Shown in pieces: positions 3,001 to 9,000 of a stretch of 55,130 nt of DNA. This stretch comes from Girardia tigrina (lineage: Eukaryota): contig MQRK01223681.1 of assembly GCA_001938485.1 (NCBI GenBank), positions 1 through 55,130 of the forward strand, given 5' to 3'. How positions within the stretch are numbered: position 1 is the stretch's first letter; every line of letters starts with the position of its first letter. The position numbers are program-made.

Positions 3001-6000
3001 TTTTATTTAGATTAACTACAGACGCCGTAACCGGGAGATGAGACATGACTATTTATACGGATTTGACGATGTGAAGGTAGCCTAGATGCAATCAAGTAAA
3101 ATTTATTTTGTCTATACAATTTATGAGTACTGAGTTTTATTGTCTAAATATTTTACTTAATTTTCAAAAACTTTTAGAAATATGATTTCTTATTTATGTA
3201 ACAATTTTATTTTGTATCTATTTTGTATCAATTAATTAAAATTGAGTTAAAATATTGTTATACAAAATTTTTAATTTATAAATTAAATTTAAAAATTTTA
3301 ATTTTTACGTTTTGAAATTGCTTAAATTTTATCAGCATAACGAAAATCGACTCCTCAGAAGTAATTTTACAATTAATTTTTAAAATGTAAACATGATGAG
3401 ACGTGCGTACTGTGGTATAGATGCTATTGTATTTAATTATATGGTTTTGTACCATTCAATTGCTTTAAGAAATATTTATTTCAATAATATCAGTTTATTA
3501 ATTCAGTATTTGAGGTATTATCAATATACAGTCAACTCCATATATTTCAAAATCGTATATCTCAAATTATCGCCTATCTCAAATATTTTTTTAAAGTCCC
3601 GATTTTTTTCCCGACAATTTTTTCAACTCCTGGTTATCGTAGGTTTATTAGTTAAACGTCAGTATTTACATTTTTTAAGCTGAATATTTATAAAACTGAA
3701 ATTTGAAATATATATGGATATTGATAAATAACAATAAACTTAAAAATTTTTTAATTTTTTTGAAATCGTTTGTTTCAAACATTTTTATGGTCCCAAAGAA
3801 TTTGAGATATGCGGAAAACATATTGTCAAGATTCAATTAAAAAGTGCATATTGGAGTCGGGAAATGTTTACAGAAGTATGATCGAATTACAAATATATAT
3901 ATATATATATATATATAGGGTTAATAATAGGGGGGTTAATAAATAAACATCCCTCCAAAAAGCATAATTGTTTTATTATCACTTAGTTATCCATTGGAAT
4001 TCTTTTAATAACGTATTTGTTATTTAAACAGGTTTTTTGACAATTTATCTTCAAAACAAGTTATTTGCTATACTGGTTCTAGGACAATTCGTTGCAGGTT
4101 AATTAATTTTCTTAATTATAAAAATGAAAATATTAAAAGTAGAAATAACAAATTTAATGAAGAAAATATTTTTAATAATAAAAATGAAAGTTTTTGTCTT
4201 TATTTAATAAAAATTTTCACAATAAAACTGCCTGGATCTTCTTGATGTCTGCCTGTATGGCCTCAGCGTCACCATGCCCATGTAGAGTGCCGACCATGAC
4301 CCTGAACGCCTGTGCCGGTACCTAGATGATTTGCTGAGACACGTTTGAGCAGAATGTGAGGAATAATTTAAATTGTTTGAATGTGTAAATGCATAGATGC
4401 TGTATGTTGATTTAAGTATGTTGAATTTAGAATGGTGATTCTCCCACCCAGATGGAAATTGGTATTTTTTTATTAAATTTAAATGATTGACTATTCTAAC
4501 ATAATTAAAATAATCATTTTATAAGTTCATATTTTTAATTTCACAATTAAAATTAAGTTTAATAATTTTTAGTAAAATTTAAATTAAATTCATTTTTAAT
4601 AATTTGATGACATTTTTATTATTTTTGGATTTATTGAAAAATGGTAAAAATTAATATTTTTTAATTTATATTTTTTTAGAAGTTAAATATTTTAAAAAAA
4701 TAACTTAGAAAAATTGTTCGAATAATCATGATTAAAAACAGAAATAAGAAAACCAATTAGAACGATGGCAAACGATGAAAGACCTGAGAGTTGTAATGAC
4801 TCTAAATGTAATTGCAATAAAAAATCAAATGAGACTTATTTAAATGTTCTTAACCCATTAACGCCGAACGGGAACATTCGTGCCCAGTTAATAAAAATGA
4901 CTGTAAAAGTAAAGACATTGCATTTAGCTATGTTTCGTTGATAAGGTGTGTACTCTGAAGGTTCAGAACACATACGGAACATGTTTTGTTTCTCTGTCAC
5001 CAGACATGCATGCGCAGTAGCCGGCTGACCTTGACCAAGAAAGGAGTGTATGTAACATGGCATCATAATCATCAATAATTCTCGGCATAATTGGGTTAAT
5101 ATAGAACAATGGACAAGCCAAGTTATTCGCCATTCTGCCTCTCTGTATTGTCAAATATTGTTTCTCATTATCTCCAAATATCAAGTCTTTATCGACAAAA
5201 TAATCGAGTTTCTCAGGCTCGTAATCCGACTCGATTTTTTTCCACAAACACAACGATAAAACAATGAATATATATCAAATGTCGTCAAATGAAATCACAA
5301 CACAAAGAAAGAGGTCACAGTTTATTTTAAACAAAATTCTTTTTTTTGCTAATTAACATCTTTTATTTTATTTCCAAAGTACAATTTTTAATCTAAAAAA
5401 AATCATTCATAAAATTTTTCTTATTTTTTATTACTCACAAAAAACATTTTTTGATCCAAAATACCCAGTTTATTTTCAATAACAAAAGTGGTTCAAGTAC
5501 TATTCTCTTTTTTAGCTCCATCCGTTGTATTGTTTTTTAACACACACATATTTAATTAAATTTGTTATTTTTATTTATAATGTTATCAGAATAAGTAAAT
5601 GAACCGCTTAAATCACACCAAATATATTACACACAAAATTTTTTAATCACTTCTCGTTTTCGAATATCCGCTAATGTCCGAGCTCAGTTAAACAACGAAC
5701 AATTTTCGTTACATTTTCCTGTTCATTTTCATCATCACATATAGCAATGAAAATTCATTTTATTTTGATTGAATTTCTTAATAAGAAATTCGAATTCAGA
5801 GCGTAATCGAGAGTGGTACTGTTCAATTCAACCACGACGCTGATCGGCACACACTTTCCATGAATTCCAGAAGTAACGTAAATATCAATTCTCTGTAATT
5901 GCAAATCACTGTCGCTTTCGTGAACACCAGTGGCCGATTTGACACCGTGTTCGTTCGTGATTATTTTCCAAAACTTTGTTCCAATACTGTTTCCACAACT

Positions 6001-9000
6001 TTGAAATATTTTCATTAATTCATACCATTGATCATCAATGTCTTCACAAATTTTAGTAGGTGCTGAAATTTCGTCAGTTTCTTTGATATACAATCTCTGA
6101 TTGGGAATTATTACATGATTATCTTCAAATGTCTTTACAAAATAATCCACATTAAAAATATAGTCAAATGGCAAAGTTATCTCTTCTTTTAAATCAAAAT
6201 ATTGGGTCGTGAAACGAGGCAAATATTTAGTCGAGAAGTTAAGTATGAAACTTGAATATTATTGTTTTGGTCAATTGATATTATTATTAAGACCTGACAC
6301 GTTTAGTCCTTTTATACCTTACTTACATTCACAAATTTTAGTAAAATTATTACCTGGTATTATCTTTTAAAAATCTAAGCTGATTTTCGTCTTCCTATAT
6401 TCCGATATGTGAGTTCTTATTTCTTAAAATGAAAATTTATGATAATAATATATAAATAACGGCAAGTTATAGGAGACAGATTTGAGTTAAAGATAAACCT
6501 GAATTTCTGAGTCTATAAAGTAATAATTATAATAAAAAATAGTTTTAGTCAGGACAATCGACAATATTTCCCCAATAAATAGCCTGCTTGGTAAATATTG
6601 ACAAAATAACTCATATTTGATAAATTTCATTCAGGAATTCTCTGATAGAACCAAATTGTTGTTTGATGGTTAATAGAAAAGATGGTTAATGGGAAAATAA
6701 AAGCAATTATTTTATTTGTATTTTTAAAAGAATTTTTTTGATTTTATCATTTCTTTGATATTTTAATTGTAACAAACGAATTTTGGGGATATCTGCAATC
6801 TTCATCTATCAAAGACCCTCGCTACTTCTTTTTTTTATTGTTAAAATTTCTTTAATTTCTCTTTAATTAAAATTCAGTGTTTTTTAATTTCTCAAAAAAA
6901 ATCTTTGTTATTTCTGTGTATTATTTTTGTAAATATGAAACAGAAAATATTAGACAACTTGACTCCTTTAATTTAAAACATGATTTAACGTCCAAGGGTT
7001 CGTCTTGAAAATTCTTTCGAACTTATTTGTATTTGAGTCTCAAATAAAATTGCATATACGAGGATTTAGATCTACTAGAACGAATAATTGTATTTTTATT
7101 ATTTATGAAAATAAAGGCCATTAATTATTAATCTTCTCGTATCCATGGTGGTAACAATGACATCGTGTTAATCTGTGCCAAATTTGCTTTAAAATATTTT
7201 ATTACGTGTTATCATCTCAAATTAACGTAATTACAAATATATGTAACACTGTCTCTTTGTAATTACGTTAATTTAAGATGATAACATTTAATAAGATAAT
7301 TTAAAGCAAATTCGGTACAGATTAACAAGGTGTCATTTTTACCACCATGGATACGGGAAGGTTAAATTTATTCTTAAAATGCTTCACCATCAAACAATTT
7401 TTTTGTAAATTATTGAAATGTTTTTTCTTATTAATTCGAATATATCGAATCATTTTTGATTACTTAGATTTCGTCAAACGATCTTAAGATCGAGGATTTG
7501 AATATTTGATTATTCCATTCTTACTCAATCAATTTTCTATAAATTTTTGCACATTTACTCATTTTCAATGACAATAAATAATAATGTGAAAATTTTACCA
7601 AGAAAAACTTTTTAAGGTCTCACAATGAAAAAAATGGCCAAATCAGAGTTCCTGAACAATGTTTGTGTAAAAAGATCTACTTGTAAATTATAAGTAGTTT
7701 ATATTAAGCAAAAAGTAAATGTAATAGTAATTTTACCTTCTACAAAAGATGACAAAAAATTCTCTTGGCCAAGTAGAGTTCTTCCACTATAAAGAATGGG
7801 TATAAAATTTTTTTATTTTGATTTACTAGTTTTTAAATTTATTATCAAAATGTTATTTTAATGTAAAATTACAATTGAATTTTTGGATTGATTTTTAAAT
7901 TTTATATTACGAATTTGCTGTATTCGATACAGAAAATTGCAGATAGAATAATTTCAATAAACGATTAAATATAAAAATATTCGATGAGGGAAAATTTACT
8001 TTCTTCAATAAAATGAGCCCTGCTCGAACACAACATGCCTGACCTTCACACTCCAACTGCCATTCTATAACTATCTCCTCCTGGTCTTCGGGACAAAGTG
8101 GAGATCGAGCAGAGCAATACTGTTGCTCCTTTGTAATGAAGGTCTTAAAACACAACACCAACACAAAAAAATGATTAAAAAATTAAAGAATTTATTGTAG
8201 TATAAATAATTGAAATTTATTAGGATATTTATATCGTTTTGTTAAATTCAAAAGTCGTTTGTGATTGTTTGATGTCTTATTGATTAACGATAATCTTAAC
8301 AGTGATTATTTAGCTTTCTTAACAGATATTAACCATTCTTAAGAATTATTTTAAAAACTAGTAAATCAAAAAATGAAATTTTTTAAATCCATTCTTTATG
8401 AAGACAGAACTCTACTTTGCCAACATAGTTTTATTTAAAAAAAATTTAAAAAAAGCAATAAAAAATTAATATAAACTACTTATAATTTATAAGCAGATTT
8501 TTCTTTCATTTAATATTGTTCGTGAACTCTGATTGGATTTTTTTTCTAATTCTGAAACCATAAAAATGTTTTTCGATCAAATTTTCACATTATCATTTAT
8601 TGTGATCGAAAATCCGTAAGTGTTCAAAGTTTGAAGAAAATTAATTGAGTAAAAAGCCTTTAAAAATAGGTTTATAAATTCCATGGAGACATATATACAT
8701 ATATAGAAAGTAAGCTAATAAAAAGAATGGAATTAGAGAATTATTTACTTAAAAATAAAAATACTTCTTGTTAGATATTTTTGGAATATCTTCCACGTTA
8801 TCAATATTAAATGCTGACATCAGTTTTTCAAGTTTTATTTATCTAATGTGTAATACATTTTATTTAAACAAATTAATTAATTAAATTAATTAATTTAATT
8901 TATTAATTAATTTAATTTATTATTATTAATTTAATTCATTATTTTTTTTAATTTTGAGGAACTATTTATTTCATAAATCTCAAACCGGTATAATAAAAAT

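What the first reader, a model, noticed from the sequence alone, without database searches (positions are those of the whole stretch)
5755..6258. In-frame PP1-phosphatase / beta-tubulin chimera joined at a shared Cys-Gly
Seen: one uninterrupted frame of at least 155 codons switches from PP1-like sequence to beta-tubulin residues ~12-75 at tgtgga (5997-5992). Both parents can plausibly contribute CG there (FxxCG vs QCGNQ). The metal-binding GDIHG has become EDIDD, and there is no upstream ATG. Inference: microhomology-mediated template switching or deletion joined two housekeeping genes. The frame is stop-free despite heavy divergence, unlike neighbouring relics, so it might be an expressed exon.
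Basis: partly seen in the sequence, partly recalled or inferred. Interest (0 to 1): 0.72.

Follow-up and report, generated by a model that had tools for sequence, protein, structure and literature searches.

The report
Decayed PP1–β-tubulin chimeric gene copy
The open frame really is the front end of a divergent PP1 phosphatase gene copy fused in frame to a piece of β-tubulin; the same joint occurs in three other sequence records, and the copy in this window lacks its start and its end, so it is probably a dead member of a small chimeric family.

Summary
Window 5758..6258 (-) is a 167-codon stop-free frame. Its 3' half matches β-tubulin residues ~11-77 (E 3e-16). Its 5' half matches PP1 only weakly on its own (E 0.04; no Pfam Metallophos hit). 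It matches a full-length, motif-intact PP1 paralogue, P0010, strongly (tblastn E 1.4e-23).

The switch lies at Cys-Gly (TGTGGA, 5997-5992). The PP1-paralogue lineage and β-tubulin both carry Cys-Gly there.

This is not a one-off event at this locus. Three other database proteins (P0001-P0003, 69-86% identical) carry the same joint, which rules out misassembly. An unfused relative, P0004, shares with the chimeras a derived 19-residue deletion. The parents were therefore already-divergent duplicates, not the housekeeping genes.

The window copy has no Met where its relatives start. It also lacks the last ~26 tubulin-derived residues that the relatives keep. No other PP1 or tubulin piece lies in the 55 kb. 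I found no flanking inverted repeats and no poly(A).

Best reading: a decaying secondary copy of a lineage-specific chimeric family. Expression, copy number and the mode of copying are untested.

The parts
5758..6258 (-). Stop-to-stop open frame, 167 codons (ORF listing: 5755..6222 including the stop, 155 aa from a TTG)
5785..6195 (-). Unit homologous to the chimeric relatives P0001-P0003 (137 codons). This is the only copy in the window.
   Evidence: tblastn: P0001 E 8.7e-80 at 86% identity; P0002 E 3.4e-55; P0003 E 7.8e-51
5998..6195 (-). Part derived from a divergent PP1 paralogue (N-terminal region up to the residues before the joint). The first metal-binding motif is degenerate (EDIDD). 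There is no Met at the position where P0001, P0002, P0010 and P0152 start.
5992..5997 (-). Joint: TGTGGA = Cys-Gly, present in both parent lineages
5785..5997 (-). Beta-tubulin-derived part (tubulin residues ~11/12 to ~78-81). GC at third codon positions is 0.44, against 0.20 in the PP1 part.
5755..5784 (-). Nine codons plus the stop with no likeness to the relatives, which continue here with ~26 more tubulin-like residues

Best explanation
The frame is one decaying copy of a small, lineage-specific family of chimeric sequences. The N-terminal ~70-85 codons of a divergent PP1 paralogue were joined once, in frame, to codons ~12 to ~105 of a beta-tubulin copy. The joint sits at a Cys-Gly that both carried, so it looks microhomology-guided. 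That PP1 copy was already damaged by a 19-codon deletion. The chimera was then copied or inherited into several loci or species.

The copy in this window has lost the initiator Met position and the 3' quarter of the unit. It sits alone in AT-rich, transposon-littered DNA. It most likely makes no phosphatase, no tubulin and probably no protein at all.

Shown: chimerism, the place of the joint, recurrence of the joint, the shared deletion, motif decay, and the missing ends.
Inferred: a single origin, the role of microhomology, and loss of function.
For: Two independent homologies sit in one frame. The identical joint occurs in P0001-P0003, which come from two sources.

Pairwise identities rank the copies the same way in both halves (PP1 part / tubulin part): P0001-P0002 87/94%, window-P0001 85/89%, window-P0002 77/84%, window-P0003 69/73%.

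A 19-residue segment is present in P0010, P0152 and a canonical PP1 (P0211). It is absent from P0004, the window and P0001; P0002 and P0003 have larger gaps there.

The first motif reads GDIHG in P0004, GDIHK in P0002, EDIHD in P0001, EDIDD in the window and EETHD in P0003.

GC3 steps from 0.20 to 0.44 at the joint.

The window frame has no Met before residue 82. The relatives' last ~26 residues were not found in the window. No further PP1 or tubulin piece scores E<0.1 in the 55 kb.

Similar divergence in both halves among the copies fits drift.
Against: The frame is unusually long for this DNA (3 of 200 simulations).

In neutral simulations only 57 of 1000 tubulin parts and 3 of 1000 whole units stay stop-free at 50% residue divergence, and 166 of 1000 at 14%. 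Some coding constraint, past or present, is therefore plausible.

All three indels seen in the PP1 part of the family are in frame: 19, 27 and 10 residues. However, the database holds only predicted ORFs, so this set is biased towards open copies.

No DNA of the relatives was available. dN/dS, copy number, unit boundaries and expression are therefore all untested.

Confidence: 0.6

Rival explanations
1. This is a live coding exon. The chimeric ORF family encodes a small non-enzymatic protein that is still under selection, and the window copy is expressed by splicing to an upstream exon or by starting at the internal Met.
For: The open frame is longer than expected. Stop-free survival is improbable under neutral drift at the family's depth of divergence. 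P0001 and P0002 start with Met at the same position as the intact paralogues P0010 and P0152. The family's indels are in frame.
Against: The window copy has no Met at that position and lacks the relatives' 3' part. Catalytic motifs are decayed differently in each copy. Both halves diverge at similar rates. The retained pieces are small parts of two larger folds: Pfam Tubulin positions 10-70 of 190, and Pfam detects no Metallophos domain. There are no expression data.
Confidence: 0.12
2. The chimera was made and spread by reverse transcription. Either a 5'-truncated beta-tubulin cDNA was joined to, or template-switched onto, the PP1-paralogue sequence at a short match, or RT switched between two mRNAs. 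The copies would then be retrocopies.
For: The tubulin part runs uninterrupted over residues ~11-102 in P0001. The PP1 part runs from the parental start. RT-bearing element relics are present in the window. Template switching at chance similarities, chimeric retrocopies and microhomology at 5' junctions are described in the review PMC5470649 (passages read).
Against: There is no poly(A): the longest A run is 8 nt, and one A-rich 15-mer in 990 nt matches the background rate of 0.58 per kb. Tubulin likeness ends near residue ~102-105 in all relatives rather than running to a 3' end. Parental intron positions are unknown, so intron loss is untested.
Confidence: 0.13
3. A DNA transposon (Pack-TIR / Pack-MULE-like, or a Helitron) captured the two gene fragments by template switching and amplified them.
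For: The family has several copies with one joint. Microhomology at capture breakpoints and multicopy Pack-TIRs in animals are described in PMC8277862 (passages read). Mariner-type transposase relics lie in the window. The window also holds other orphan gene fragments, for example SAICAR synthetase.
Against: The best inverted match between the two flanks is no better than in shuffles. For 20-mers it is 16 or 17 matches, reached by 38 and 35 of 40 shuffles. For 30-mers it is 22 or 24 matches, reached by 15 and 7 of 40 shuffles. Neither flank of the unit is repeated elsewhere in the window; the nearest dispersed repeat ends ~930 nt away. Helitron ends were not tested.
Confidence: 0.13
4. This is an assembly artefact joining reads from two genes.
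For: The window has six N runs, so the assembly is imperfect.
Against: The same joint appears in three non-identical proteins from other contigs in two sources. No N run lies within 14 kb of the finding. Both halves are far diverged from any ordinary PP1 or tubulin, so they are not reads of the housekeeping genes.
Confidence: 0.02

Closest known systems
Chimeric (fusion) genes and chimeric retrogenes of animals, as reviewed in PMC5470649 (passages read)
   Same: Parts of two unrelated parent genes lie in one reading frame. The joint falls at a short sequence match. The N-terminal partner contributes its own start.
   Different: Neither part is a whole domain and the catalytic motifs are decayed. 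No retrocopy hallmarks were found in this copy. Expression is unknown. My searches listed no PP1/tubulin chimera (listings only).
Pack-TIRs: host gene fragments captured and multiplied by TIR DNA transposons in animals (PMC8277862, passages read)
   Same: The gene-derived pieces are small (median 224 bp in that paper; here ~200 + ~210 nt). There is microhomology at a breakpoint, and more than one copy exists.
   Different: There are no terminal inverted repeats beyond chance around this copy. The microhomology here lies between two host fragments, not between a fragment and a transposon. The paper's supplementary lists could not be seen.
Multicopy families of duplicated testis genes in heterochromatin, e.g. 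crystal-Stellate / Su(Ste) / PCKR on the Drosophila Y (PMC6325706, passages read)
   Same: Duplicates of ordinary genes sit in repeat-rich, gene-poor DNA. Many copies exist, some of them chimeric or dead, and states are shared between copies in ways that suggest gene conversion. Here P0003 and P0004 share residues that the other chimeras lack.
   Different: Only four chimeric copies are known here. The chromosomal location, sex linkage and testis expression of this family are unknown. That the PP1 parent is a male-germline paralogue is only an analogy that I recall, not a result.

Membership tests
PPP-family Ser/Thr phosphatase, PP1 type (as a working enzyme) | Sequence homology to PP1 | tested here: met
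   P0010 against the window: E 1.4e-23. P0004 against the window: E 1.7e-29. P0004 against PP1 structures: E 4.8e-21. The window half alone reaches only E 0.04.
PPP-family Ser/Thr phosphatase, PP1 type (as a working enzyme) | Complete metallophosphatase domain | tested here: not met
   No Pfam Metallophos hit at E<=10. Only the region matching P0010 residues 5-~88 of 371 is present.
PPP-family Ser/Thr phosphatase, PP1 type (as a working enzyme) | Intact metal- and phosphate-binding motifs. These are seen intact as GDLHG, GDYVDRG and GNHE in P0010; their role is recalled, not tested. | tested here: not met
   The first motif reads EDIDD in the window. The second and third motifs are absent because tubulin sequence follows the joint.
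Beta-tubulin (as a working tubulin) | Sequence homology to beta-tubulin | tested here: met
   E 3.4e-16 to residues 10-76. P0001 matches residues 11-102 at E 1.8e-24.
Beta-tubulin (as a working tubulin) | Complete Tubulin/FtsZ GTPase domain and C-terminal domain | tested here: not met
   Pfam Tubulin matches profile positions 10-70 of 190 at 25.8 bits, below the cut-off of 33. No further tubulin piece lies in the window. Identity to beta-tubulins is 39-53%.
Chimeric gene or pseudogene joined at microhomology | Two collinear segments, each with its own significant homology to a different family, in one frame | tested here: met
   compositional step at the joint
Chimeric gene or pseudogene joined at microhomology | Residues at the joint shared by both parents | tested here: met
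   Cys-Gly is present in P0004, P0010 and P0152 and in beta-tubulin at the aligned place. This is shown at residue level only. The nucleotide-level length of the match could not be tested because no parental DNA was available.
Chimeric gene or pseudogene joined at microhomology | The joint is real, that is, seen independently | tested here: met
   P0001, P0002 and P0003 carry it. Only two clusters of this kind score E<=1e-30 among 1.84 billion representatives.
Pack-TIR / Pack-MULE-like captured fragment | Terminal inverted repeats flanking the captured DNA | tested here: not met
   The best inverted matches between flanks of 1 and 2 kb are within the shuffle range. The inverted pairs listed that span the unit are 17-22 nt long at 76-85% complementarity.
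Pack-TIR / Pack-MULE-like captured fragment | Target-site duplication and shared element ends among copies | not testable with these tools
Retrocopy / chimeric retrocopy | Poly(A) tail at the 3' end | tested here: not met
   Longest A run is 8 nt in the 990 nt downstream. However, the 3' end of the unit is missing in this copy.
Retrocopy / chimeric retrocopy | Loss of parental introns | not testable with these tools
   The parental gene structures are not available.
Geminivirus Rep (central domain) | Significant match to the Pfam model | tested here: not met
   E 0.087-0.14 at 12.7-13.4 bits against a cut-off of 24. The same residues are explained by the PP1 paralogue at E 1.4e-23.

The most novel reading that the evidence does not exclude
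The PP1-paralogue/beta-tubulin chimera is a young, lineage-restricted, multicopy protein-coding family. Its reading frame has been held open by selection, and it makes a small non-enzymatic protein, for example one that competes for partners of PP1 or tubulin in the germ line. It would be amplified in repeat-rich DNA in the manner of conflict-driven families such as crystal-Stellate. The window would then hold one recently disabled member.
Probability: 0.1. Interest if true: 0.7.

Novelty: new member of a known kind. Interest (0 to 1): 0.36.

Why it matters
Chimeras of gene fragments are a known source of both junk and new genes. Here the same joint is preserved in several diverged copies, and a pre-fusion relative (P0004) and intact parents (P0010, P0152) are also available. 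The order of events can therefore be read: duplication, then a 19-codon loss, then fusion at a two-residue match, then copying, then decay. If the family proved to be transcribed and constrained, it would be a dated example of a new gene built from two broken ones. If not, it is a well-documented dead chimera and a warning for gene predictors, which called three of its relatives as proteins.

Tried and rejected
I replaced it with scans of 50 stop-free frames.
- 'Longer' protein search with the ORF: none of 125 candidates passed. The tool itself calls this weak evidence.
- Genome-contig scan with the alignment of chimeras: 96 pattern matches, 0 relatives. The collection is prokaryotic.
- ESM Atlas with P0001: no usable hit.
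- Rfam and tRNA scans of the whole window: nothing.
- Neighbouring frames 4839-5150 and 4966-5274 (-): no Pfam hit and no credible PDB-sequence hit. They are not further pieces of either parent.
- Other two-stretch hits (P0005-P0009, P0012, P0021, P0038, P0082): these are tubulin-tubulin repeats, not PP1-tubulin. P0098 is a tubulin with a foreign N-terminus.
- Gemini_AL1_M hit: rejected as noise.
- The exact 16-nt repeat at 6043-6058 / 6328-6343: 19 of 300 simulations give one, and similarity does not extend beyond it. Treated as chance.
- Structure prediction was not run. Two sub-domain fragments with a four-row alignment would not have changed any probability.
- Literature: (listings only) showed no PP1/tubulin chimera.
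Full report
**1. The observation**

On the minus strand, 5758..6258 is a stop-free frame of 167 codons. The ORF listing reports 5755..6222, 155 aa from a TTG. The window is about 25% G+C. Of its 7774 N-free open frames the mean length is 12.6 codons, and this one is the second longest. Only 3 of 200 order-2 Markov simulations of the whole window produce a frame of 167 codons or more.

The 3' half is beta-tubulin. phmmer against PDB sequences matched 176 sequences at E<=10. 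All 60 shown are beta-tubulins; the best is E 3.4e-16, with query residues 87-154 aligned to chain residues 10-76. Pfam Tubulin gives E 1.5e-5, but at 25.8 bits it is below the curated 33.

The 5' half gave no Pfam Metallophos hit even at E<=10. Against PDB sequences it gave only marginal hits (best E 0.04, 31 residues), although all 60 shown contain a PP1 or calcineurin catalytic chain. On that evidence alone the PP1 claim would have been weak.

**2. Relatives settle the PP1 origin and change the picture**

A word-indexed search with the whole frame returned 4 proteins from 12 candidates.
- P0001 (165 aa), P0002 (182 aa) and P0003 (272 aa) carry the same PP1-to-tubulin joint. In full-length alignment they are 86%, 76% and 69% identical to the window frame.
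- P0004 (97 aa, Pfam Metallophos) has the same N-terminal sequence but continues as PP1. It matches PP1 structures at E 4.8e-21.

An exhaustive phmmer pass over 1.84 billion cluster representatives gave 966 hits at E<=1e-3. Only 2 scored E<=1e-30 (P0001 and P0003). It also found P0010, a 371-aa PP1 paralogue with GDLHG, GDYVDRG and GNHE in place.

Local tblastn places P0010 residues 5-98 on window 6195-5971 (E 1.4e-23), P0004 on 6174-5986 (E 1.7e-29) and P0001 on 6195-5785 (E 8.7e-80). The other two-stretch hits are tubulin-tubulin repeats, not chimeras.

A weak Pfam hit of the 5' half to a geminivirus Rep central domain (E 0.09, 13 bits against a cut-off of 24) is noise, because the same residues are explained by the PP1 paralogue.

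**3. The joint**

TGTGGA at 5997-5992 encodes Cys-Gly.
- The PP1-paralogue lineage reads FQFCG (P0010), FQYCG (P0152) and FQNCG (P0004). A canonical PP1 (P0211) has FEYGG at that place.
- Beta-tubulin has CGN at the aligned place.
- The chimeras read FQSCGN.

The Cys-Gly is thus shared by both donors, and in PP1 it is peculiar to this paralogue lineage. The length of the match in nucleotides cannot be given without parental DNA.

Base composition steps at the joint. GC at codon positions 1/2/3 is 0.39/0.20/0.20 in the PP1 part and 0.42/0.38/0.44 in the tubulin part.

**4. History that can be read from the alignments**

P0010, its one close relative P0152 (77%) and a canonical PP1 all have a 19-residue segment. 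That segment is missing from P0004, the window and P0001; P0002 and P0003 have larger gaps there. The deletion is therefore derived, and it predates or accompanies the fusion.

P0010's other listed relatives are at most 54% identical. That search scored 7997 of 8000 candidates at E<=1e-20 and listed 120. The PP1 donor was therefore a fast-evolving, lineage-specific paralogue, not the housekeeping gene.

Among the chimeras the two halves rank the copies alike (PP1 part / tubulin part):

| Pair | PP1 part | Tubulin part |
|---|---|---|
| P0001-P0002 | 87% | 94% |
| window-P0001 | 85% | 89% |
| window-P0002 | 77% | 84% |
| window-P0003 | 69% | 73% |
| P0001-P0003 | 73% | 73% |
| P0002-P0003 | 66% | 71% |

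One fusion followed by copying or speciation explains this.

The first metal-binding motif decays differently in each copy: GDIHG in P0004, GDIHK in P0002, EDIHD in P0001, EDIDD in the window and EETHD in P0003. P0004's second motif reads GEFVDCG against GDYVDRG in P0010.

Inference: the PP1 part of P0001 is 82% identical to the unfused P0004, while the tubulin part is only 39-53% identical to any beta-tubulin, and the two halves drift at like rates. Much of the tubulin divergence therefore probably predates the fusion, which means the tubulin donor was itself a diverged copy. No such copy appeared. Gene conversion between P0004-type and chimeric copies would weaken this inference.

**5. State of the copy in this window**
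- The frame has no Met before residue 82. P0001 and P0002 start with Met at the position where P0010 and P0152 start.
- Homology to the relatives ends at 5785. They go on for about 26 more tubulin-like residues (to tubulin residue ~102). Those residues are found in no frame downstream.
- No other PP1 or tubulin fragment scores E<0.1 anywhere in the 55 kb. Neither a host PP1 gene interrupted by tubulin nor a tandem array is present here.
- The flanks carry no inverted repeat beyond chance and no poly(A). They are not repeated elsewhere in the window; the nearest dispersed repeat, 4355-4853, is ~930 nt away.

**6. Is the frame kept open by selection?**

I ran neutral, AT-biased substitution simulations starting from the window's own codons.

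| Segment simulated | Residue divergence | Stop-free outcomes |
|---|---|---|
| Tubulin part | 50% | 57 of 1000 |
| PP1 part | 50% | 38 of 1000 |
| Whole unit | 50% | 3 of 1000 |
| Whole unit | 31% | 28 of 1000 |
| Whole unit | 14% | 166 of 1000 |

In these simulations all divergence is put on one lineage, and indels are ignored.

The three indels in the PP1 part of the family are all in frame.

This speaks for coding constraint somewhere in the family's past, either in the donors or in the chimera. For the recent history of this copy it is weak. The three database relatives are also pre-selected for being ORFs.

**7. Surroundings**

The window is transposon debris. It holds mariner-type transposase relics, reverse-transcriptase and GIY-YIG relics, a dispersed repeat, a hairpin and a foldback. 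It also holds another orphan gene relic, SAICAR synthetase. No Rfam family and no tRNA were found. There are six N runs, none within 14 kb of the finding; they were left alone.

The retroelement relics are presumably the virus-like stretch that the operators mention. I describe them only and did not map their breaks.

Nothing in the window was taken for human.

**8. Comparison with what is known**

The closest kinds are:
- chimeric genes and retrogenes (PMC5470649, passages);
- Pack-TIR captures with breakpoint microhomology (PMC8277862, passages);
- multicopy duplicated families in heterochromatin such as crystal-Stellate (PMC6325706, passages).

It fits the first as a kind. It fails the tested hallmarks of Pack-TIRs (terminal repeats) and of retrocopies (poly(A)) in this copy, though the missing 3' end limits the second test. 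Three literature searches listed no PP1/tubulin chimera (listings only).

**9. Verdict**

The chimera is real and the joint is correctly placed. The mechanism (microhomology) is plausible but shown at residue level only. The event was not local, and it did not join two housekeeping genes. This copy is most likely dead (0.6).

Noticed in passing
window 1032-1727 (-) and 37674-38333 (+): Relics of mariner-type transposases. The HTH part scores E 1.3e-9 and 2.2e-7; the DDE part (Pfam Transposase_1) scores E 2.5e-14, 2.3e-9 and 0.006. Each relic is split over several frames.
   Followed up: partly
window 19129-19713 (-): SAICAR synthetase relic in two adjoining open frames that lie in different reading frames (Pfam E 7.6e-9 and 9e-7). 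It is another orphan piece of a housekeeping gene in this repeat-rich stretch.
   Followed up: partly
window 42586-43370 (-), 48438-48671 (-), 52757-53155 (-): Retroelement debris, presumably the virus-like stretch. Reverse-transcriptase fragments score E 2.8e-6, 0.0015 and 7e-4, all below the curated cut-off. A GIY-YIG nuclease fragment scores E 0.004. By recollection, an RT with GIY-YIG suggests Penelope-like elements; this was not tested. The pieces are fragmentary and their breaks were not counted or mapped.
   Followed up: partly
window 35825-36040 (-): Weak hit to a restriction-endonuclease-like domain (PF18154, E 4.7e-4, below the cut-off) in a G+C-richer island (34-36 kb, 35% GC) that has open frames on both strands.
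   Followed up: no
window 4355-4853; also 48831-49351, 18278-18780, 28563-28963: A dispersed repeat family. The best pair is 76% identical over 544 nt. One copy lies ~930 nt downstream of the chimera.
   Followed up: no
window 7128-7365 and 7518-8655: A 110-nt inverted repeat with an 18-nt spacer (89% complementary), and a ~1.1-kb foldback with ~340-nt arms at 73%. These may be MITE- or foldback-like elements upstream of the chimera.
   Followed up: no
window 11695-11757: A degenerate telomere-like run mixing TTAGG- and TTAGGG-type units: about 10 units, 70% matches.
   Followed up: no
window 6043-6058 and 6328-6343: An exact 16-nt direct repeat, with one copy inside the PP1-like part and the other upstream of the frame. 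19 of 300 simulations give such a repeat in 4 kb, and similarity does not extend.
   Followed up: yes
window 4225-4450 and 4825-5275: G+C-richer islands (up to 49% and 43%) downstream of the chimera. Their open frames of 103-104 codons have no Pfam hit and no credible PDB-sequence hit.
   Followed up: partly
proteins P0003 and P0004 (not in the window): The chimera P0003 and the unfused P0004 share N-terminal residues (for example N in DYNFNV) that the other chimeras lack. This hints at exchange between fused and unfused copies, or at a shared genome.
   Followed up: no
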